Source: a virus
Lineage: Duplodnaviria > Heunggongvirae > Uroviricota > Caudoviricetes
Length of the DNA: 9,127 nt
Reading direction: 5' to 3' (one strand)
IMG/VR virus record: IMGVR_UViG_2695420600_000001
Shown: piece after piece, positions 1 to 9,127 of the stretch
Layout of the letters: the number at the start of each line of letters is the position of its first letter
How positions within the stretch are numbered: the first letter of the stretch is position 1
The notes under the pieces: model-generated
The model's database searches: none
What the model was told of the DNA's origin: nothing
What the model saw: only the letters and a program-made list of their open reading frames with translations
Position numbers and translations under genes: made by a program

Positions 1-44
<44 letters not shown>

Positions 45-692: not shown

Positions 693-724
693 TCCGATAG
701 CACAGGTCTGTCGGGGGGCGGGAT

Positions 725-940
725 ATGTATCAGATGGAAAAAATATCAACAGGCATTGCCTACGGCACCTCCGCCGGCAGTGCCGGCTACTGGTTTTTGC
801 AGTGGTTGGATCAGGTCAGTCCATCACAGTGGGCTGCGATTGGTGTGCTGGGAAGTCTGCTTCTGGGGCTTCTGACTTATCTGACAAATCTGTATTTCAA
901 AATAAGAGAAGACAAGCGTAAGGCTGCGAGAGGTGAATAA
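725..940 (+). CDS. Class II holin (phage 21 S-like pinholin), copy 1 with a divergent N-terminus (MYQMEK...)
   Basis: 71-aa ORF with a Gly/Ala/Ser-rich first transmembrane segment ([20 protein letters not shown]), a second hydrophobic segment and a charged C-terminal tail ([13 protein letters not shown]). From residue 10 onward it is identical to copy 2. ATG at 725 follows a G-rich stretch, and the stop overlaps an ATG at 940 (TAATG). Confidence 0.75.
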
Positions 941-983
941 TGTCGCCATCATTACGCAAGGCTGTTGCAGCTGCTATTGGTGG
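752..983 (+). repeat. Direct repeat, copy A (232 bp), covering most of the holin gene plus the first 44 nt of the endolysin
   Basis: Identical to 1164-1395 except for one mismatch (971 C versus 1383 T); offset 412 bp. Identity ends abruptly at 983/984. Confidence 0.9.
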
Positions 984-1008
984 AATTTTAGGAAGGAGTG
1001 TCCGTTAA
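940..1008 (+). pseudogene. Truncated endolysin 5' remnant (first 15 codons of the SAR endolysin, then unrelated sequence and a stop)
   Basis: Encodes [15 protein letters not shown], matching the N-terminus of the intact endolysin at 1352, then diverges at 984 and terminates at TAA 1006-1008. Confidence 0.7.
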
Positions 1009-1136
1009 ACTCAGGCTACCTCAGTGCTTTCCTTACTGTATATATCGTTTCGCCCGCTTTTGCGTTTTTTTCTTTTCAAATCCCTTTCATTTCTCAGTGT
1101 AAAACTACGCCATCCGTTATTTGCGGAGGTGAGGCT

Positions 1137-1352
1137 ATGAAATCCATGGACAAAATTTCAACGGGCATTGCCTACGGCACCTCCGCCGGCAGTGCCGGCT
1201 ACTGGTTTTTGCAGTGGTTGGATCAGGTCAGTCCATCACAGTGGGCTGCGATTGGTGTGCTGGGAAGTCTGCTTCTGGGGCTTCTGACTTATCTGACAAA
1301 TCTGTATTTCAAAATAAGAGAAGACAAGCGTAAGGCTGCGAGAGGTGAATAA
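1137..1352 (+). CDS. S: Class II holin (phage 21 S-like pinholin/antiholin with MKSM dual-start motif), copy 2
   Basis: ATG at 1137 is preceded by GGAGGTGAGG. The 71-aa product [26 protein letters not shown]... matches the phage 21 S protein as I recall it. Its stop overlaps the endolysin ATG (TAATG at 1350-1354). The ORF-track entry 933-1352 is an upstream extension from a GTG codon and is not used here. Confidence 0.9.
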
Positions 1353-1395
1353 TGTCGCCATCATTACGCAAGGCTGTTGCAGTTGCTATTGGTGG
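1164..1395 (+). repeat. Direct repeat, copy B (232 bp)
   Basis: Partner of 752-983; one mismatch. Confidence 0.9.
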
Positions 1396-1849: not shown

Positions 1850-2316
1850 GCAGAGTAACCGCGATTATCTCCGCTCTGGTTATCTGCATCATCGTCCGCC
1901 TGTCATGGGCTGTTAATCATTACCGTGATAACGCCATTACCTACAAAGAGCAGCGCGACAAAAACGCAAGAGAACTGAAGCTGGCGAACGCAACCATTAC
2001 TGACATGCAGCAGCGCCAGCGTGATGCTGATGCACTCGATGCTAAATACACGAAGGAGTTAGCTGATGCGAAAGCTGAAAATGATGCTCTTCGGCGCAAG
2101 CTTGATAATGGTGGTCGGGTGCTCGTCAAAGGAAAATGCCCTGTGCCATCCTCAGCCGAAACCTCCAGCGCCTCCGGCATGGGCAATGATGCCACCGTCG
2201 AACTCTCTCCAGTTGCTGGACGAAACGTTCTCGGTATCCGGGACGGAATCATCAGCGACCAGACAGCATTGAGAATGCTTCAGGAGTACATCAGGATCCA
2301 ATGCCTTGGGGGGTAG
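1846..2316 (+). CDS. Rz: Rz inner-membrane spanin (i-spanin)
   Basis: [17 protein letters not shown]... N-terminal transmembrane segment followed by a coiled-coil-like region; strongly similar to lambda Rz from memory. ATG at 1846 overlaps the endolysin stop; the ORF track's 1834 start is an upstream GTG. Confidence 0.85.
2066..2272 (+). CDS. Rz1: Rz1 outer-membrane lipoprotein spanin (o-spanin), embedded in Rz in the +1 frame
   Basis: 68 aa with signal peptide and lipobox (LIMVVGC) followed by a proline-rich segment ([12 protein letters not shown]), entirely inside the Rz reading frame, which is the classic embedded arrangement. Confidence 0.8.
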
Positions 2317-2404
2317 CGGTAATTTTACTCATTATCCTTCAAATCAGATTCTGTTGTCAGAGGAATGGGGGAAGCTGGATTCGCAAGAGCTTTTTATGGG
2401 CAGT

Positions 2405-2917
2405 TTAGCTAAAAAAAGGCAACACGAAGCTAAAACTACCAACATAAAGTGCTGACCAGCTAGCAGCTGAAATCAGACTCACTGTATACACTTTCACTGG
2501 ATGAAGTTGCAACATTCCTGCCACCAAAGGAGCAATATAACGCAGCACGGCGATAAAGCGCGAAGTGAAAAGTATTGACACAGAGTTATTTTGCAACTGA
2601 AGGCGAACCCGTTCTATTGTATTGGAACGGCTTGATATTATACATGCAAGTTGAGGGATATGCCCAATTATTATACCAAGATGGTAATTAACGATAGTAC
2701 CGCACCATGCGCCACTCATGACCGTGATTCCAGCTTCCCATGGTGAAAGAGTCGTCTTGCTGACTGTAATTACAGTGGCCATCATAATTGATGCTGGTGG
2801 CAATATCGCCGAAATGAGTAAAGTGGATTTTGTGAACGCTATTATAAAAAGAAGCCCCCATAGGCGATATGGATGAAGTACAAAATAGTTCATCAAAGCA
2901 TTTATCCACTCCATCAA
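2405..2917 (-). CDS. DedA/YqaA-family integral membrane protein (putative moron)
   Basis: Minus-strand ORF of about 170 aa with several hydrophobic segments. Segments LISAILPPASIMMATVIT...LSPWEAGITVMSGAWCGTIVNYHLG and RFIAVLRYIAPLVAG resemble the conserved core of E. coli YqaA/YqjA as I recall them. The region is AT-rich compared with its neighbours and is transcribed opposite to the late operon. Start is TTG at 2917 or ATG at 2914, with AAGGA upstream. Confidence 0.6.
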   Translation of the reverse strand: MMEWINALMNYFVLHPYRLWGLLFIIAFTKSTLLISAILPPASIMMATVITVSKTTLSPWEAGITVMSGAWCGTIVNYHLGIIIGHIPQLACIISSRSNTIERVRLQLQNNSVSILFTSRFIAVLRYIAPLVAGMLQLHPVKVYTVSLISAASWSALYVGSFSFVLPFFS

Positions 2918-3000
2918 TGTCTTTCCTTCTGTGAATTTTTCTTTGCTATTTAACCGTGATACGACTTAATTTAGGCTTAAACACCTTACATTTACAAGGT

Positions 3001-3039
3001 ACTCCTGTGGGGGGCCCTGCCACGGAGCGTCGCAGGAGT
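3001..3039. other. Inverted repeat (ACTCCTG ... CAGGAGT) flanking a GC-rich 25-bp spacer, 70 bp upstream of terS
   Basis: 7-bp perfect arms at 3001-3007 and 3033-3039; spacer TGGGGGGCCCTGCCACGGAGCGTCG is locally GC-rich in an otherwise AT-rich intergenic region. Function unknown. Confidence 0.3.
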
Positions 3040-3111
3040 GAGTGATGAGGAAGAATTAAAGCAACCTATTGTGACAGGCAGCGATAACAGTAAATCACAG
3101 GAAGCATAATC

Positions 3112-3876
3112 ATGGCAAAACCGGACTGGGAGGCCATCGAATCGGCATACCGGGCCGGAGTCCTTAGCCTCCGTGATATAGGCGAGAAATACGGCGTTAC
3201 AGAAGGGGCTATCAGGAAGAGGGCCAAAAAGCTTGGTTGGGCACGCAGTGGCGGTACGCAGGTTTGCAAAAATGGTACGCAAAAAAGGAAAGTGCGTACC
3301 AGCAGAAAGCCTGCCATTACTGGCCTTACACAAAAAAGTACGCAACTAAAAACAGAATCTACACCGGATACGAAACCGATACGCGGAATGCGTACCGATC
3401 CCCCGACTAACCCATTCCAACCCGGTAACCAGCAGGCATTAAAACACGGTGGTTATGCCCGTCGCCTTCTGCTCAAAGATGAGGTGATAGAGGACGCTAA
3501 AGCGTTGACGCTCGAGGACGAATTATTTCGCCTTCGTGCTAACAACCTTGTCGCTGCAGAGAATATTGGTCGGTGGTTGGTGTCGCTGGAAGATGCTAAT
3601 GGGGACCAGGAAAGGAAGATGCTGATTGAAAATATCAGCGCCGCCGAGAAAGCAATGATGCGCAATACAGTTCGTATTGAGTCCATCGTTGGCACGCTTG
3701 CGACGGTAGGAAAAATATTTGCTGATACAGCCTACCGCAAGGCCGCCACTGATAAGGTGTCTCTGGAGGCTGATCGTCTTCGCCGTGATGCAGGTATTGA
3801 TGATGGCAATGGAGAGCGTGACCTCAATGACTTCTACTCTGACATCCAAACCGACGCTGAATCCGGCTTTACGTAG
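3112..3876 (+). CDS. Terminase small subunit (TerS) with an N-terminal helix-turn-helix
   Basis: 254 aa. The N-terminus (LSLRDIGEKYGVTEGAIRKRAKKLGW) looks like a helix-turn-helix DNA-binding motif, followed by a basic linker; it sits immediately upstream of terL. ATG at 3112 is preceded by AGGAAG. Confidence 0.7.
   Translation: MAKPDWEAIESAYRAGVLSLRDIGEKYGVTEGAIRKRAKKLGWARSGGTQVCKNGTQKRKVRTSRKPAITGLTQKSTQLKTESTPDTKPIRGMRTDPPTNPFQPGNQQALKHGGYARRLLLKDEVIEDAKALTLEDELFRLRANNLVAAENIGRWLVSLEDANGDQERKMLIENISAAEKAMMRNTVRIESIVGTLATVGKIFADTAYRKAATDKVSLEADRLRRDAGIDDGNGERDLNDFYSDIQTDAESGFT
3253..3396. repeat. Cluster of GGTACGCA octamers in both orientations inside terS; candidate pac site
   Basis: Perfect GGTACGCA at 3253-3260 (+) and 3274-3281 (+); reverse complement TGCGTACC at 3293-3300 and 3389-3396; 7/8 match AGTACGCA at 3337-3344. 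A-tracts flank several copies. Confidence 0.45.
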
Positions 3877-5230
3877 TTTCTGGACTATGCGGGCACGTAA
3901 CAAAGTGCTTTATGGTGGTCGGTCATCGTCAAAATCATGGGATGCCGCTGGCATTGCCATATTTCTGTCGAATAAATACACCCTGCGTTTTTGTTGTGCC
4001 CGTCAGATCCAGAATAAAATCGAAGAGTCGGTGTATACCCTGCTCAAAATTCAGATAGACAGGTTTGGTCTGCGGCACCGTTTCCGTATTCTGAACAACA
4101 AAATCATTAACCGGGTTACTGGCTCGGAATTTGTTTTTTATGGATTATGGCGCAACATCGAAGAAATTAAGTCACTGGAGGGGATCGATGTGTTGTGGCT
4201 GGAAGAAGCCCACGCACTGACGGAATACCAGTGGAAAATTCTGGAGCCAACGATCCGTAAAGAGGGTTCGGAATGCTGGTTCATATTCAACCCCGGACTT
4301 GTTACTGATTTCGTCTGGCGCAACTTCGTTGTTGATCCGCCCGAAGGCACTCTCATCCGCAAAATTAACTATGACGAAAATCCGTTTCTGTCTGACACCA
4401 TGCTTAAGGTTATCGACGCGGCGCGACGCCGTGATCCGGATGGTTTTAAACATGTGTATGAGGGCGTTCCGGAGTCTGATGATGATGCGGCAATCATCAA
4501 ACTGTCTTGGATAGAAGCCGCAGTGGATGCGCACAAAACGTTAAATTTCGAACCCAGTGGAAGAAAGCGTATTGGCTTTGACGTGGCTGACAGTGGTACA
4601 GATAAGTGCGCTAACGTTTACCGTCACGGATCCGTTGTTTTCTGGGCCGACGAATGGAAGGCCAAAGAAGATGAATTACTGAAGAGCTGCCAGCGTACTT
4701 ATCAGGCGGCGCTGGAGCGTGAAGCAGATATTGTTTACGACTCTATCGGTGTTGGTGCGTCTGCCGGTGCTAAATTCTCTGAAATTAACGCTGACCGGAA
4801 GAGCGAGAACGCATACGCGCGACGTGTGAATTACCAGAGGTTTAACGCCGGTGCTGGTGTGCATGAGCCAGATGACGAGTACAACGGCATCCCCAACAAA
4901 GACTTTTTCGCAAATCTTAAGGCTCAGGCATGGTGGCTGGTGGCTGACCGTTTCAGAAATACGTTTAACGCCATTAACAACGGAGAACAGTATCCTGTGG
5001 ATGAGCTGATCAGCATAGATTCTCGTTGTCCGTTGCTTGAAAAGCTGAAACTGGAACTGACAACACCTCATCGTGATTTCGACCGTAACGGACGTGTGAT
5101 GGTCGAAAGTAAAAAAGACCTCGCAAAACGCGAGATACCGTCACCAAACGTTGCTGATGCATTCATTATGGCCTTCGCGCCAATCGATACATCGCTGGAT
5201 ATCTGGGAACAGCTGGGGAGACAGGCCTGA
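3827..5230 (+). CDS. Terminase large subunit (TerL), PBSX-type
   Basis: Walker A motif VLYGGRSSSKS near the N-terminus, then a continuous 1.4-kb ORF with ATPase and nuclease-like regions. Start is uncertain: ATG 3827 (overlaps terS by 50 nt) or ATG 3887; the ORF-track start at 3719 is a TTG. Stop overlaps the portal ATG (ATGA at 5228-5232). Confidence 0.85.
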   Translation: MTSTLTSKPTLNPALRSFWTMRARNKVLYGGRSSSKSWDAAGIAIFLSNKYTLRFCCARQIQNKIEESVYTLLKIQIDRFGLRHRFRILNNKIINRVTGSEFVFYGLWRNIEEIKSLEGIDVLWLEEAHALTEYQWKILEPTIRKEGSECWFIFNPGLVTDFVWRNFVVDPPEGTLIRKINYDENPFLSDTMLKVIDAARRRDPDGFKHVYEGVPESDDDAAIIKLSWIEAAVDAHKTLNFEPSGRKRIGFDVADSGTDKCANVYRHGSVVFWADEWKAKEDELLKSCQRTYQAALEREADIVYDSIGVGASAGAKFSEINADRKSENAYARRVNYQRFNAGAGVHEPDDEYNGIPNKDFFANLKAQAWWLVADRFRNTFNAINNGEQYPVDELISIDSRCPLLEKLKLELTTPHRDFDRNGRVMVESKKDLAKREIPSPNVADAFIMAFAPIDTSLDIWEQLGRQA

Positions 5231-6696
5231 TGGCACGAAACAAACAAGCCCTGCGGCGAACTGTGCAGGCCACAGCTGATGGTTATGAGAATTTTATTGC
5301 CCGCGTAGGGATGCAGACACCTAACCAGCACTCAGCATCCACCTACCGGGCTAATTTCACCAGTCGTAACCGCATGCTGGTGGAATGGTCCTATCGTTCA
5401 TCCTAGATCATCGGCGAAGCAGTCGATGCTATCCCGGATGATATGACCCGCAAAGGCATTCGCATCACTTCGGAAATTGATGCAAAAGATCGTGGCATTC
5501 TCGAATCACAACTGGATGAGTTGCAAATCTGGGATGCGCTGAATGACGTGCTGAAATGGTCGCGCCTCTACGGCGGCGCGGTGGGTTTCATCATGATTGA
5601 GGGGTAGGCACCAATGACCCCGCTGCGACCCGAAACCATCGGTAAGGGCAAGTTTAAGGGGATTCTCCCGCTCGACCGCTGGATGGTCGACCCGGCACTG
5701 ACCCGCCGCATTAAAGATATGGGGCCGGACCTGGGTAAACCTGAGTTTTACGATGTGGTGACCACAGCAACGGGAATTCCTGCCTGGCGCATTCATCACA
5801 GTCGCCTGATTCGCTTTGATGGCGTCACGTTGCCATTTCAGCAGAAGATGACCGAGAACGAATGGGGAATGTCGGTTGTAGAGCGTATCTGGGATCGTCT
5901 TACCGCGTTCGACAGCGCTACTGTCGGCGCGGCGCAGCTGGTCTACAAGGCGCATTTGCGTACCTACAGCGTGGAGAAGCTACGCGAGCTTATCGCACTT
6001 GGTGGTCCTGCGTATGAAGCGTTGCTGAAGAATATCGACCTGATTCGACAGTTCCAGAGTAATGAAGGCATGACGCTCATGGACTCGCGGGATAAGTTTG
6101 AAACCCATCAGTACAGCTTCAGTGGTCTGGATGACATCCTTTCGCAGTTTGTAGAACAGATTAGTGGCGCTGTTGGTATCCCACTGGTGCGGTTGTTCGG
6201 ACAGTCCCCGAAAGGATTTTCTACCGGTGATGCAGACCTTGCCAACTATTACGATCGCATCAGTTCGTTGCAGGAGAGGCGTTTACGTCTTCCGGTGCGG
6301 CGGATACTGGACATCATGCATCGTTCGGAACTTGGCAAGCCGCTGCCGGACGATTTCACGTTTGAGTTTAACCCGCTCTGGCAAATGTCTGATGTCGATC
6401 GCTCAACGGTGGCGTTAAACACCACCAACGCAATCAGTACGGCGCTGGGTGATGGTCTGATGACACTGAAAGCCGCTATGACTGATTTGCGAGAAAATTC
6501 TGACGTAACCGGCATCGGGGCATCCATTACCGACGAGGACATCGAGAATGCCGAAGATGAAGCGCCGCCCGGCATCGGCGAACCTGATGACGAACCGCAG
6601 GAGCCGTCAGGCGGAAATCCGGTATCGAACCAGCCTACGCAGGATAGCGAGGGCGGTCGGAGACATCGTAAATGGTCGCTACGATGGTTCAAATGA
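5230..6696 (+). pseudogene. Portal protein gene interrupted by two in-frame TAG (amber) codons
   Basis: A single reading frame from ATG 5230 to TGA 6694-6696 translates as MARNKQALRR...VEWSYRSS*IIGEAVDAIPDD...FIMIEG*APMTPLRPETIGKGK..., coding-like throughout. The only interruptions are TAG at 5404-5406 and TAG at 5605-5607, with no frameshift. Position after terL, the size (about 488 codons) and an acidic C-terminus fit a portal. Confidence 0.7.
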
Positions 6697-7330
6697 CAGT
6701 ATCACGGAAATTATTGCGGCGCTGGAGCGTTACAGTGAAATCATCACCCCCTGGGCGACAAAGGTCGCGGAAAACTTTACTGCGGACCTAACCCGGCAGA
6801 ACGAGAAAGTTTGGCGGCAACACAGCAAGAACATCAGTCGCGAGCTCCGCAATCTTGTGGAAAGCGCTCCTGTGGGCCAGGTGATGCAATCCATCATCGC
6901 CGAACAGGTCAAGTACATCAAATCTCTGCCTCTCGAGGCCGCAGACAGGGTGTACGACATCCAGAACAAAGCGATAGAGGCTGTTGTCACCGGTGGTCGG
7001 GCGGAGCAGTTTGCTAAAGAGATTGCATCTACCGGCGATGTTGCTAAGTCTAGGGCCGATCTGATTGCCCGAACGGAACTGGGAAGAGCAACGGGCGCGC
7101 TGGATATGGCCCGAGCGATAGCTATTGGCTCGGATGGTTATATTTGGCGTACAGCCGATGATGGCGATGTCCGAGATTCCCACGATCACATGAAAGGTAA
7201 ATTCGTCCGCTGGGATTCACCTCCAACTTTGGACGGCATGACCGGCCACGCGGGCGAGCTGCCAAACTGCCGCTGCTATAAAGAGATCGTGTTTGTTCGC
7301 GTTCCATTCGCAATGAAAAGGGCAGCATAA
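6548..7330 (+). CDS. Head morphogenesis protein (phage Mu F-like / SPP1 gp7-like minor head protein)
   Basis: 260-aa ORF directly after the portal; the segment ADLIARTELGRATGALDMARAIAIG...RDSHDHMKGKFVRWD resembles the Mu F-like domain. Start is uncertain (ATG 6548 with GAGGA upstream, or 6557/6587); any of these overlaps the portal 3' end by more than 100 nt. Confidence 0.7.
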   Translation: MPKMKRRPASANLMTNRRSRQAEIRYRTSLRRIARAVGDIVNGRYDGSNDSITEIIAALERYSEIITPWATKVAENFTADLTRQNEKVWRQHSKNISRELRNLVESAPVGQVMQSIIAEQVKYIKSLPLEAADRVYDIQNKAIEAVVTGGRAEQFAKEIASTGDVAKSRADLIARTELGRATGALDMARAIAIGSDGYIWRTADDGDVRDSHDHMKGKFVRWDSPPTLDGMTGHAGELPNCRCYKEIVFVRVPFAMKRAA

Positions 7331-7333
7331 CCC

Positions 7334-8554
7334 ATGAAATACTTTTTTGAGACCAGGCTCGGGGAAACCCGATACCGCCTGGCTGACGGCTCGTTGCTGT
7401 GCAAAGACGTGCCGATAGGACGAACAGGTAAGCAGCTCTATGGTGCTGATGACCTGCCAAAACTGAAACCCGATAAGTTCGGTGAAATAGTCGTCACGCG
7501 TTCTCCTGAGCAGGTATTCCATCCGGCCACGCTTGCCTCATTCGAAGGGATGAGCATCACGATCCTGCATCCTGAAGATGAAAACGGGAATGTGCGGCTG
7601 GTAAATCCCGAGAACTGGAAAGAGCTTGCTGTCGGGCACCTCCAGAATGTCCGGCGCGGGACGGGTGAGCAGTCTGATTTGATGCTGGCTGACCTTATCG
7701 TCAAAGACGAAAGCGCCATTCAGCTTATCGAAGATGGCCTGCGCGAAGTGTCGTGCGGCTATGACGCGGAGTACGAGCAGACCGAGCCAGGTAAAGCCGA
7801 GCAGGTCGATATTACCGGAAACCATGTGGCTCTTGTCCCTAAAGGCAGAGCCGGAAATCGTTGTGCAATTGGAGACAGAGACACAATGGCAAATCAAAAG
7901 AAAAACTGGTGGAACCGCATGCGTGCGGCCATCAAGACAGGAGATGCCGACACCATGAACGAACTGGTGGAGTCGGCTCCCGCATCGGTTACAGGAGATG
8001 AGGGGGATTTGCCGCAGGGCGTTAATCTCAACATCAACCTGTCCCCGCAGCAACCACTACCGGACAAAGCACCAGAGATGGGCGGAGATCCAACCGGCGA
8101 CAGTGATGATGACCTCAAAACATTACTGAAAGCCCTGCTGGCTAAGCTGGAAAGAAATGCCACGGGCGATAACGATAATAAGCCTGACGATAATCCGACC
8201 GGTGACGGCGAGGACGATGAAGAGGAAACCACGATTACTGGTGACTCAGCCTGGCGTGCCGAAGTTATCGTTCCGGGTATCGATCTGAGCCGTAAGATGA
8301 AACCGACCGCGTTCAAACGCGAGGTTCTGGCTTCTGCTGACAAAACGCTGGTTCGCCAGATAGTCGGTGATGCGGATATCCGCAAATTACCGAAACAATC
8401 GGTCGACATGGCGTTTAATGCCGTGTCTGAGGTTGCCAAAGGGCGAAACACCCGCGCCACCACCGGCGATGCACAGCGCCTAAACATGGGCATGACCAGT
8501 ATCGCTTCCCTGAACAAACAAAACGCTGAATTCTGGGCAAACCGTAAAGGGTAA
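7334..8554 (+). CDS. Putative head scaffolding/prohead protein with an acidic low-complexity C-terminal half
   Basis: 406-aa ORF tightly packed after the head morphogenesis gene (3-nt gap). The central and C-terminal region is rich in Asp/Glu/Gly/Thr (GDSDDDLKTLLKALLAKLERNATGDNDNKPDDNPTGDGEDDEEE). Function inferred from position and composition only. Confidence 0.55.
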   Translation: MKYFFETRLGETRYRLADGSLLCKDVPIGRTGKQLYGADDLPKLKPDKFGEIVVTRSPEQVFHPATLASFEGMSITILHPEDENGNVRLVNPENWKELAVGHLQNVRRGTGEQSDLMLADLIVKDESAIQLIEDGLREVSCGYDAEYEQTEPGKAEQVDITGNHVALVPKGRAGNRCAIGDRDTMANQKKNWWNRMRAAIKTGDADTMNELVESAPASVTGDEGDLPQGVNLNINLSPQQPLPDKAPEMGGDPTGDSDDDLKTLLKALLAKLERNATGDNDNKPDDNPTGDGEDDEEETTITGDSAWRAEVIVPGIDLSRKMKPTAFKREVLASADKTLVRQIVGDADIRKLPKQSVDMAFNAVSEVAKGRNTRATTGDAQRLNMGMTSIASLNKQNAEFWANRKG

Positions 8555-8557
8555 AAA

Positions 8558-9064
8558 ATGAATAATGTATTTCTGTACCGGATGCCTGTTGGCATTGCCG
8601 GGGCTGTCTCTCGCCCGCAGGACTTAACCGTCGAACCGGTGGTCCTTAAATCCGATAACGCCTTCGCTGCCTATGGCCTGGCTGGTAAATACGATGATGA
8701 CGGTTTTTTCGTGCCGCTGGCAGATGGTGATACCGCAGACAAGGTGAAGGGGATCTACGTGCGCCCTTATCCGACCACGTCGCAGCCGGACATGGTTCGC
8801 CAGGTGGGAACAGGCAAGAACTTCCCGGGCGACGCCATGAAGCGTGGCTACGTGACCGTTAATCTCGGTTCTGATTTTGATGCCAGCACTATCAAAAAAG
8901 GCGATCCGGTATACGTTGTCGTCTCCACTGATGAATCCATCAAAGTGCCGCTGGGTGGATTCATGTCCACGTCAGTCAGTGGCAAAAACGTGGTGCTGAC
9001 CAACGCTGAATTCACAGGTGCCGGTGATGCTGACGGCAATGCAGAAATTTCCTGGAAGATTTAA
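8558..9064 (+). CDS. Phage structural protein, possibly a head decoration or cement-type protein
   Basis: 168-aa ORF starting 3 nt after the previous stop, with no hydrophobic segments. It is too small for a major capsid protein; function inferred from position only. Confidence 0.45.
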   Translation: MNNVFLYRMPVGIAGAVSRPQDLTVEPVVLKSDNAFAAYGLAGKYDDDGFFVPLADGDTADKVKGIYVRPYPTTSQPDMVRQVGTGKNFPGDAMKRGYVTVNLGSDFDASTIKKGDPVYVVVSTDESIKVPLGGFMSTSVSGKNVVLTNAEFTGAGDADGNAEISWKI

Positions 9065-9127
9065 GGAACAGACGAATGAGGTGATGCTGCCAACTTACTG
9101 ATTTAGTGTATGATGGTGTTTTTGAGG

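What the first reader, a model, noticed from the sequence alone, without database searches (positions are those of the whole stretch)
5230..6696. Portal gene carries two in-frame amber (TAG) codons but is otherwise intact
The portal frame is continuous and coding-like for about 489 codons, interrupted only by TAG at 5404-5406 and TAG at 5605-5607. There are no frameshifts or deletions, and the flanking terL and head genes look intact. TAG is a genuine stop elsewhere in this window (it ends Rz and terS), so genetic-code reassignment is unlikely. That leaves a recently inactivated (cryptic) prophage, a phage maintained in an amber-suppressor host, a laboratory amber mutant, or sequencing errors. 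Two nonsense changes of the same type within 200 bp of an essential gene is not what slow random decay usually looks like.
Basis: seen in the sequence. Interest (0 to 1): 0.7.

Follow-up and report, generated by a model that had tools for sequence, protein, structure and literature searches.

The report
Dead portal gene in Shigella prophage remnant
The two in-frame TAG codons are real, but they are ordinary inactivating mutations in the portal gene of a broken, insertion-sequence-riddled prophage remnant carried by Shigella sonnei, not a sign of suppression, recoding, a laboratory mutant or a sequencing error.

Summary
ATG 5230 to TGA 6696 is a 488-codon portal frame (Pfam Phage_portal_3/DUF1073) broken only by TAG at 5404-5406 and 5605-5607. 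Intact alleles in E. coli prophages and in phages carry TGG (Trp59) and CAG (Gln126) there, so both stops are single G:C>A:T transitions at conserved residues.

The window is a whole draft contig. From 1858 to 9127 it is 100% identical to complete Shigella sonnei chromosomes. All complete genomes read (lineages II and III included) have both TAGs. The three resulting ORF fragments occur in about 2,600-2,750 assembly blocks, so this is not a read error or a laboratory mutant.

The element is defective anyway. IS1 cuts off the major capsid gene after 4 nt at 9080, and complete genomes carry IS2 in the holin. TAG terminates Rz and terS, and no suppressor tRNA lies nearby.

"Same type" (P about 0.25-0.33) and "within 200 bp" (P about 0.22) are unremarkable. 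The first stop sits on a Dcm CCTGG 5-methylcytosine hotspot.

One loose end remains. S. dysenteriae strains carry the same 360-aa ORF starting just after codon 126, so Q126am may be older and shared. I could not obtain their DNA.

Verdict: ordinary, already-known kind. Low interest.

The parts
5230..6696 (+). Portal-protein pseudogene (Phage_portal_3 / DUF1073 / TIGR01555), 488 codons with two internal TAG codons.
   Evidence: The intact allele hits Pfam PF06381 at E=3.3e-106, TIGR01555 at 255 bits and the Pam3 portal 8hds at E=2.2e-37.
5404..5406 (+). Amber codon 59. The ancestral codon is TGG (Trp59), changed by G>A at 5405. This is the G paired with the 5-methylcytosine of Dcm site CCTGG at 5402-5406.
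   Evidence: Trp59 is at least 90% conserved in 14 homologues.
5605..5607 (+). Amber codon 126. The ancestral codon is CAG (Gln126), changed by C>T at 5605. This is not a Dcm site.
   Evidence: Gln126 is invariant in 14 homologues.
6152..6152 (+). Third S. sonnei-specific change in the gene: C>T, giving Ala308Val.
5230..5406 (+). 58-aa N-terminal ORF fragment.
   Evidence: Called as a gene in 2737 assembly blocks.
5443..5607 (+). 54-aa middle ORF fragment, which exists only when both TAGs are present.
   Evidence: Found in 2758 blocks. Pfam PF06381 at E=2.6e-10.
5614..6696 (+). 360-aa C-terminal ORF fragment. A GAGG-like motif at 5599-5602 lies upstream of ATG 5614. Expression is not shown.
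   Evidence: Found in 2576 blocks. UniRef names it Q3Z426_SHISS, S. sonnei. The motif was read.
3827..5230 (+). Large terminase subunit (PBSX family), intact. Its TGA stop overlaps the portal ATG (ATGA).
3112..3876 (+). Putative small terminase subunit, intact, ending in TAG.
   Evidence: SEN34 has a terS at the same position.
6587..7330 (+). Mu F / SPP1 gp7-like head morphogenesis gene, intact.
7334..8554 (+). DUF2213 (Pa193_gp24-like) head gene, intact, with the S. sonnei-specific change S403N.
8558..9064 (+). Head cement / decoration gene, intact.
9076..9079 (+). The first 4 nt (ATGA) of the DUF2184 major capsid gene. The rest is cut away.
   Evidence: Compared with L001, where the capsid gene starts at 11663.
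9080..9127 (.). Terminal 48 bp of IS1. This is the truncation point of the prophage and the contig end.
   Evidence: In complete genomes IS1 is followed by chromosomal genes for a lactonase, a LysR-type regulator, an aconitase-like protein and a pectinesterase.

Best explanation
This is a nonsense-mutation pseudogene of the portal protein of a SEN34-like prophage that has decayed into a remnant in the Shigella sonnei chromosome.

How it works: translation of the portal message stops at codon 59, and would stop again at codon 126, so no 488-aa portal can be made. The element could not build heads in any case. IS1 has removed the major capsid gene and everything downstream. In complete genomes IS2 splits the holin and other IS elements replace the tRNA/late-promoter region.

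The two stops are independent single G:C>A:T transitions that accumulated under relaxed selection. TGG>TAG at codon 59 is the expected product of 5-methylcytosine deamination at a Dcm CCTGG site. CAG>TAG at codon 126 is an ordinary C>T transition. It was probably the earlier hit, because a TAG126-only allele (a 125-aa plus a 360-aa ORF on the ancestral background) appears to exist in S. dysenteriae 155-74.

Shown: the alleles, the ancestral codons, fixation in S. sonnei, the IS truncation and the Dcm context. Inferred: the order of events, Dcm activity in the ancestor, and neutrality.
For: Ancestral codons:
- Intact 1467-nt alleles with TGG59 and CAG126 occur in the closest E. coli prophages at 99.4-99.9% identity.
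- Phages vB_EcoM-689R2 and SEN34 have the same two codons.
- Trp59 is nearly invariant and Gln126 invariant across 14 homologues down to 57% identity. Both align to the same residues in the solved Pam3 portal.

Distribution:
- None of the 142 (codon 59 probe) or 273 (codon 126 probe) E. coli complete genomes holding these segments has either TAG.
- Window 1858-9127 is 100% identical to complete S. sonnei chromosomes, all TAG/TAG.
- These include 53G (lineage II) and 75/02 (lineage IIIc), identified through PMC5447701.
- The three ORF fragments occur in 2576-2758 assembly blocks and are always together where read.

Other damage to the element:
- IS1 cuts the capsid gene and IS2 sits in the holin.

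Selection and mutation:
- The nine lineage-specific substitutions are 3 synonymous, 4 missense and 2 nonsense, and 6 of the 9 are G:C>A:T. This fits relaxed selection.
- Position 5405 is the 5mC-paired G of one of only three Dcm sites in the gene.
- Dcm sites were the tenfold amber hotspots in lacI (Coulondre 1978, as reviewed in PMC12606429).
- Among 8 Trp codons tested, nonsense-type N-terminal fragments on multiple contigs exist only for the two that lie in Dcm sites, W59 and W186.

Background: Shigella reference genomes each have at least 199 pseudogenes (PMC7373316).
Against: - Two nonsense changes among only three substitutions in the gene is uncommon a priori under neutral spectra (P = 0.004-0.011). 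Two nonsense among nine substitutions, both in the same gene, gives P = 0.006-0.012. The Dcm hotspot and after-the-fact selection of the case reduce this excess but do not remove it.
- The same ORF start (M129) in S. dysenteriae Sd197, 1617 and 155-74 needs horizontal transfer, shared descent or recurrence if it reflects the same TAG126. A simple story of decay inside S. sonnei does not cover that.
- I did not scan a whole S. sonnei genome for suppressor tRNAs.
- I did not verify Dcm activity in the lineage.
Confidence: 0.9

Rival explanations
1. Sequencing or assembly error: the TAGs are artefacts of this draft contig.
For: The left 1.86 kb of the contig does look mis-assembled. It has duplicated holins, and its lysozyme variant is unique to this contig.
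Against: From 1858 onward the contig is identical to independent complete genomes, all TAG/TAG. Four IMG/VR proviruses carry both alleles. The three fragments occur in about 2,600-2,750 assembly blocks.
Confidence: 0.01
2. The portal is still made by amber suppression or read-through, using a host or phage suppressor tRNA or leaky UAG, so the phage is conditionally functional.
For: Only 12 portal subunits are needed per head, so low read-through could in principle suffice (my own reasoning). Relatives of this prophage carry a tRNA cluster just upstream. A Q126am-like allele may occur in several Shigella lineages.
Against: The relatives' tRNAs have anticodons CAT, TCT, TGT and TCC or TAC, and none has CTA. 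No CTA tRNA lies within 10 kb either side in five S. sonnei loci, where the cluster is IS-disrupted. TAG terminates Rz and terS in the same element. The major capsid gene and all downstream genes are absent at this locus, so no particle could form whatever the portal does. S. dysenteriae copies carry missense changes at invariant residues such as P318L and W186R, which indicates lost constraint.
Confidence: 0.03
3. A laboratory amber (sus) mutant, or chemically mutagenised phage stock.
For: All three changes in the gene are G:C>A:T transitions, the signature of hydroxylamine, EMS or nitrosoguanidine.
Against: G:C>A:T is also the dominant spontaneous class. The alleles are chromosomal and fixed in clinical S. 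sonnei of lineages II and III from several countries. The element is IS-truncated.
Confidence: 0.005
4. The portal knock-out, or the retained 360-aa fragment, is adaptive. It might avoid a portal-sensing defence system, or poison the portal rings of superinfecting SEN34-like phages. Alternatively, an already amber-bearing element spread horizontally between Shigella lineages.
For: There is an excess of nonsense among few substitutions. The same ORF start after codon 126 appears in S. sonnei, in S. dysenteriae type 1 and in S. dysenteriae 155-74, and S. sonnei and S. dysenteriae type 1 are separate cgMLST clusters (PMC8795385). A plausible Shine-Dalgarno motif precedes ATG 5614. Convergent gene loss is documented in Shigella (PMC7373316).
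Against: I obtained no DNA for the S. dysenteriae loci, so the lesion there could be different. S. sonnei is too young a clone for conservation of the fragment to mean anything. There is no expression or phenotype evidence. The S. dysenteriae type 1 fragment carries changes at conserved residues, which argues against a retained function.
Confidence: 0.055

Closest known systems
Intact portal allele WP_000113499.1 of E. coli prophages (FDAARGOS_944, FDAARGOS_943, VL40)
   Same: Same 1467-nt gene in the same gene order (terS, terL, portal, Mu-F, DUF2213, cement). Only 3 nucleotide differences in the gene.
   Different: Those alleles have TGG59, CAG126 and GCA308, and encode a full 488-aa protein. 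FDAARGOS_944 and VL40 also keep the major capsid and tail genes downstream.
Salmonella phage SEN34 (Brunovirus) gp3 portal; Escherichia phage vB_EcoM-689R2
   Same: Same head module. DNA identity over the aligned module (window 3112-9079 for SEN34, 5177-9079 for 689R2) is 82.8% and 94.5% respectively. Both portal genes are 1467 nt with TGG59 and CAG126. PHAST named SEN34 as the homologue of this S. sonnei region.
   Different: These are functional, isolated phages with complete genomes. The S. sonnei copy is truncated and has two stops.
Pam3 portal protein (PDB 8hds) and other solved portals (9jlf, 9l01, 8fvh)
   Same: Sequence homology at E=2.2e-37 over residues 15-413. Trp59 and Gln126 align to W and Q.
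   Different: Distant relatives. No structure was modelled here.
Spontaneous amber hotspots at Dcm (CCWGG) sites in lacI (Coulondre et al. 1978)
   Same: The 5405 G>A change is at the 5-methylcytosine position of a CCTGG site and creates TAG. Hotspot behaviour is described in PMC12606429.
   Different: The lacI hotspots were CAG>TAG at CCAGG, whereas here it is TGG>TAG on the opposite strand of CCTGG. The second stop, at 5605, is not in a Dcm site.
Shigella pseudogene and IS-driven genome degradation (Hawkey et al. 2020, PMC7373316)
   Same: Nonsense pseudogenes together with IS insertions and IS-mediated deletion in one locus, fixed in a lineage.
   Different: That study found conserved S. 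sonnei pseudogenes to be IS-interrupted (24 of 24). This gene is inactivated by point nonsense mutations, although its element is IS-truncated.
Conditional-lethal amber mutants of phage portal genes (e.g. lambda Bam, P22 gene 1 am, T4 gene 20 am; from my own knowledge)
   Same: In-frame UAG in an essential portal gene.
   Different: Those are laboratory-selected, grown on suppressor hosts, and sit in otherwise complete phage genomes. None of that applies here.

Membership tests
Phage portal protein, Pfam PF06381 (Phage_portal_3 / DUF1073), TIGR01555 | Profile match above the curated cut-off | tested here: met
   The repaired or ancestral protein scores 355 bits against a cut-off of 33.8 and 255 against 196 for TIGR01555. 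The window fragments of 360 aa and 54 aa also match.
Phage portal protein, Pfam PF06381 (Phage_portal_3 / DUF1073), TIGR01555 | Homology to an experimentally solved portal | tested here: met
   Pam3 portal 8hds at E=2.2e-37, and four further portal structures.
Phage portal protein, Pfam PF06381 (Phage_portal_3 / DUF1073), TIGR01555 | Position immediately downstream of the large terminase in a head module | tested here: met
   The terL stop overlaps the portal start at 5227-5230. A Mu-F-like gene follows.
Phage portal protein, Pfam PF06381 (Phage_portal_3 / DUF1073), TIGR01555 | Uninterrupted reading frame encoding the full-length protein | tested here: not met
   There are two internal TAG codons, so this is a pseudogene of the family, not a functional member.
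Nonsense pseudogene in a defective (cryptic) prophage | Stops at positions where orthologues have sense codons, with single-nucleotide changes | tested here: met
   TGG>TAG and CAG>TAG.
Nonsense pseudogene in a defective (cryptic) prophage | Alleles reproducible in independent assemblies, i.e. not an error | tested here: met
Nonsense pseudogene in a defective (cryptic) prophage | Other disabling lesions in the same element | tested here: met
   IS1 truncates the capsid gene at 9080, IS2 sits in the holin, and IS elements occupy the tRNA region of complete genomes.
Nonsense pseudogene in a defective (cryptic) prophage | No production of full-length protein or particles | not testable with these tools
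   This needs proteomics or an induction experiment.
Suppressor-dependent (amber/sus) phage or stop-codon reassignment | TAG not used as a terminator, and in-frame TAGs spread over many genes | tested here: not met
   TAG ends Rz and terS. All other genes in the window have no internal stops.
Suppressor-dependent (amber/sus) phage or stop-codon reassignment | A tRNA with a CUA anticodon in the phage or the host | tested here: inconclusive
   None was found in the window, in three relatives, or within 10 kb either side in five S. sonnei loci. The whole host genome was not scanned.
Suppressor-dependent (amber/sus) phage or stop-codon reassignment | An otherwise complete, propagatable phage genome | tested here: not met
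   The major capsid gene and all downstream genes are missing at this locus.
Dcm 5-methylcytosine deamination hotspot mutation | G:C>A:T change at the inner C (or its paired G) of CCWGG | tested here: met
   Met for 5405, in CCTGG at 5402-5406. Not met for 5605, in the context GGGCAGG.
Dcm 5-methylcytosine deamination hotspot mutation | Host lineage has active Dcm methylation | not tested
   Assumed from general knowledge of E. coli and Shigella. No dcm gene or methylome was examined.

The most novel reading that the evidence does not exclude
The Gln126 amber may not be a private S. sonnei accident. It may be an allele shared with S. dysenteriae type 1 (Sd197, 1617) and S. dysenteriae 155-74, which all annotate the same 360-aa ORF starting right after codon 126. 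If the DNA confirms the identical TAG, there are two readings. Either an already portal-defective prophage moved between independent Shigella lineages, by recombination or by helper- or read-through-assisted packaging. Or portal loss at this codon arose repeatedly, through selection or an unrecognised hotspot.
Probability: 0.12. Interest if true: 0.4.

Novelty: already known. Interest (0 to 1): 0.12.

Why it matters
It matters little beyond housekeeping. The result shows that a striking-looking double amber in an essential phage gene is normal pseudogene decay in a pathogen known for genome degradation. It also shows that "same stop type" and "close together" are weak signals, given E. coli codon usage and a G:C>A:T-biased mutation spectrum.

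Three small practical points follow:
- The region that PHAST labelled an "intact" prophage in S. sonnei 75/02 (75/02pp10) cannot be functional.
- The first stop is a clean natural example of a Dcm-site amber hotspot.
- The possible sharing of the Q126 amber with S. dysenteriae is a cheap, testable lead on exchange or convergent decay of prophage remnants among Shigella lineages.

Tried and rejected
- **Natural gene boundary.** Rejected: all homologues are single proteins of about 480-490 aa.
- **Code reassignment or a phage suppressor tRNA.** Rejected on stop-codon usage and tRNA scans.
- **Single-TAG intermediates in E. coli.** The 61-nt allele probes found none in 5,426 complete E. coli genomes.
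- **Intermediates in the homologue search.** The top 120 cluster representatives held no 99%-identical 125-aa or 417-aa fragment.
- **S. dysenteriae DNA.** The single genome-contig scan returned only intact alleles, in S. flexneri SFBU1023 and E. coli ECMA0423. IMG/VR held only four S. sonnei-type double-amber proviruses. The metagenome scan found nothing. A literature search for strain 155-74 found nothing.
- **Exact look-ups of hypothetical intermediate proteins**. These are informative but ambiguous without DNA, because contig-end partial genes can mimic truncations.
- **Single-strand deaminase or clustered hypermutation event.** Considered and rejected: the three changes are G>A, C>T and C>T on the + strand, so they involve both strands.
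Full report
**1. Observation**

The frame from ATG 5230 to TGA 6696 translates to 488 codons. It has exactly two internal stops, TAG at 5404-5406 (codon 59) and TAG at 5605-5607 (codon 126). The mechanical ORF list shows three pieces in one frame: 5230-5406 (58 aa), 5443-5607 (54 aa) and 5614-6696 (360 aa). The neighbouring genes have no internal stops. These are terS 3112-3876, terL 3827-5230, the Mu-F-like gene 6587-7330, DUF2213 7334-8554 and the cement gene 8558-9064. TAG is the natural terminator of Rz and terS.

**2. What the gene is**

With the two stops repaired, the protein is a portal. It matches Pfam PF06381 Phage_portal_3 at E=3.3e-106 and TIGR01555 at 255 bits. It is homologous to the solved Pam3 portal 8hds at E=2.2e-37 and to four other solved portals. 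Homologues across Enterobacterales are single proteins of about 480-490 aa. The stops therefore do not mark natural gene boundaries.

**3. Ancestral codons**

- The closest E. coli prophages are FDAARGOS_944, FDAARGOS_943 and VL40, at 99.4-99.9% identity over the long aligned segments. They annotate an intact 1467-nt gene, WP_000113499.1.
- Ungapped comparison gives only three differences inside the gene: 5405 A versus G, 5605 T versus C, and 6152 T versus C.
- The changes are therefore TGG(Trp59)>TAG, CAG(Gln126)>TAG and GCA(Ala308)>GTA.
- Phages vB_EcoM-689R2 and Salmonella phage SEN34 also have TGG and CAG.
- In 14 homologues down to 57% identity, Gln126 is invariant and Trp59 is at least 90% conserved. 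Both align to W and Q in Pam3.

**4. Where the window comes from, and how widespread the alleles are**

- The window is the entire 9,127-bp contig CXCN01000154.1 of assembly GCA_001251255.1. Neighbouring accession prefixes (CXBN to CXDS) are S. sonnei drafts attributed to Holt et al. 2012 in PMC5447701. The assignment of this particular assembly is my inference.
- The 360-aa fragment is exact in 2,576 assembly blocks, mostly on 5-10 kb contigs. Ten chromosome-scale loci were read.
- Window 1858-9127 is 100% identical to these loci, and all of them are TAG/TAG with T at 6152.
- Two of them are identified in the literature: HE616528 is S. sonnei 53G (lineage II) and CP019689 is S. sonnei 75/02 (lineage IIIc). 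UniRef and NCBI names for the fragments say Shigella sonnei.
- The 58-aa and 54-aa pieces occur in 2,737 and 2,758 blocks, and are always together with the 360-aa piece in the places read.
- Four IMG/VR proviruses carry both alleles.
- None of the 142 or 273 complete E. coli genomes that hold these segments has either TAG.
- Sequencing error and a laboratory origin are therefore excluded. The alleles predate the split of lineages II and III.

**5. State of the surrounding element**

- In the window, 9076-9079 (ATGA) is all that remains of the DUF2184 major capsid gene. IS1 begins at 9080.
- In complete S. sonnei genomes, IS1 is followed directly by chromosomal genes: lactonase, a LysR-type regulator, an aconitase-like protein and a pectinesterase.
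- Upstream, a 1,331-bp IS3-family element (IS2-sized) splits the holin gene. Other IS elements replace all or most of the tRNA cluster that relatives carry.
- The prophage is therefore non-functional whatever the state of the portal.
- PHAST nevertheless labelled this region (75/02pp10, homologue SEN34) "Intact" in PMC5447701.

**6. Is a double TAG unusual?**

I used the ancestral gene and three mutation spectra.
- P(both TAG | two nonsense) is 0.25-0.33. CAG (17 codons) and TGG (11 codons) dominate the stop-adjacent codons.
- P(two portal nonsense sites 201 nt apart or closer) is 0.22-0.24.
- What is uncommon is the count. Two nonsense among three substitutions in the gene gives P = 0.004-0.011. 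Two among the nine S. sonnei-specific substitutions in 1858-9079, both in one gene, gives P = 0.006-0.012.
- Those nine substitutions are 3 synonymous, 4 missense and 2 nonsense. Six of the nine are G:C>A:T. This fits relaxed selection and the normal spontaneous bias.
- Two things soften the excess. The case was picked out after the fact from a genome type with at least 199 pseudogenes (PMC7373316). And 5405 is the G paired with the methylated C of a Dcm site (CCTGG at 5402-5406), one of only three Dcm sites in the gene. Such sites were the roughly tenfold amber hotspots in lacI (PMC12606429).
- As a crude natural test, I looked up N-terminal fragments ending just before each of eight Trp codons. 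Multi-contig entries exist only for the two Trp codons in Dcm sites: W59, and W186 (185 aa, 88 contigs). There were none for W53, W110, W151, W212 or W221. W101 appeared only as an NCBI "partial" on an 891-bp contig. Without DNA this is suggestive only.

**7. Suppression or recoding**

- No tRNA is called in the window. Positions 1-44 correspond to the 3' part of the relatives' tRNA-Gly gene (L001 2970-3044; the window starts at L001 3001).
- The relatives' tRNAs have anticodons CAT, TCT, TGT and TCC or TAC.
- Five S. sonnei loci of 21 kb contain at most a CAT tRNA.
- Together with TAG terminators in the same operon and the missing capsid gene, a suppressor-maintained phage is very unlikely.

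**8. Unresolved lead**

- Exact-sequence look-ups show that S. dysenteriae Sd197 and 1617 annotate a 360-aa protein (ABB62211.1) starting at the same Met129. It has ancestral Ala308 plus four missense changes of its own, including W186R and P318L at conserved positions.
- S. dysenteriae 155-74 has the fully ancestral 360-aa version, EGI96254.1, on a 185-kb contig.
- A 125-aa N-terminal ORF (Met1-Gly125, Trp59 intact) also exists on three contigs. The 123-aa and 367-aa alternatives do not exist.
- The only single-step stops between Met122 and Met129 are GAG124>TAG and CAG126>TAG. A TAG126-only allele therefore probably exists outside S. sonnei. That makes Q126am the older hit, and W59am (at the hotspot) plus A308V later S. 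sonnei events.
- S. sonnei and S. dysenteriae type 1 are separate cgMLST clusters (PMC8795385). A truly shared TAG126 would imply transfer of a dead element or recurrence.
- I could not obtain the DNA, so this stays a hypothesis.

**9. Verdict**

This is a real feature with an ordinary explanation: a nonsense pseudogene of the portal in an IS-truncated, SEN34-like prophage remnant fixed in Shigella sonnei. It is an already known kind of thing, and interest is low. The only open question is the modest one about possible sharing of the Q126 amber with S. dysenteriae.

Noticed in passing
window 715-1395 (holin copies at 725-940 and 1137-1352): The window has two near-identical class II holin genes separated by 43 nt of lysozyme start plus 162 nt of foreign upstream sequence. 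This sits exactly where complete S. sonnei genomes have a 1,331-bp IS in a single holin. All 8 mismatches to S. sonnei lie in 1473-1857, and the resulting lysozyme protein exists in this contig only. It is probably a short-read assembly chimera through paralogous lambdoid lysis cassettes.
   Followed up: partly
window 9080-9127; L004-L013 about 13515-14250: An IS1 end directly abuts the first 4 nt of the major capsid gene. In complete genomes, chromosomal genes (lactonase, LysR regulator, aconitase-like, pectinesterase) follow. The rest of the prophage is deleted or relocated.
   Followed up: partly
S. sonnei 75/02 CP019689 3461614-3492646 (prophage 75/02pp10): PHAST labelled this region "Intact" (homologue SEN34) in PMC5447701. 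The locus has a double-amber portal, IS2 in the holin and no capsid or tail genes at this site, so the label is wrong.
   Followed up: yes
proteins P0122, P0196, P0150 (S. dysenteriae Sd197, 1617, 155-74): The same 360-aa portal ORF, starting right after codon 126, is annotated in S. dysenteriae strains on an Ala308 background. A matching 125-aa N-terminal ORF with Trp59 intact also exists. This suggests a TAG126-only allele outside S. sonnei. The DNA was not obtainable.
   Followed up: partly
protein P0197 (185-aa N-terminal portal fragment, 88 contigs): A truncation ending exactly before Trp186 exists on many contigs of unknown organism. Trp186 is the other Trp codon lying in a Dcm CCTGG site (window 5783-5787). 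It may be a second natural Dcm-hotspot amber, or an IS or contig-end artefact.
   Followed up: no
annotation of homologues (H30, H77, H81, P0138, P0153 and others): NCBI and UniRef name some members of this DUF1073 family "anti-CBASS protein Acb1 family protein". Pfam now calls PF06381 Phage_portal_3, and the protein is homologous to solved portals. This looks like an annotation conflict in public databases.
   Followed up: no
window 2405-2917 (- strand): A DedA/VTT-domain membrane protein gene (TTG start, 170 aa) lies on the opposite strand between the lysis cassette and terS. It looks like a moron-type cargo gene, conserved in the E. coli relatives.
   Followed up: no
window 1-44; L001 2734-3044: The window starts inside the last gene of a prophage tRNA cluster (anticodons CAT, TCT, TGT and TCC; TAC instead of TCC in VL40) located upstream of the lysis genes. 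In S. sonnei complete genomes this cluster is largely replaced by IS elements.
   Followed up: partly
window 1897 and 2024 (Rz); L002 10510-11253; L006 11721-12940: There is further decay around the portal. S. sonnei-specific Rz changes are C18R and A60D. FDAARGOS_943 has IS2 in terL and an internal stop in the Mu-F gene. One S. sonnei assembly splits DUF2213 into 264 and 158 aa, which may be an assembly indel.
   Followed up: no
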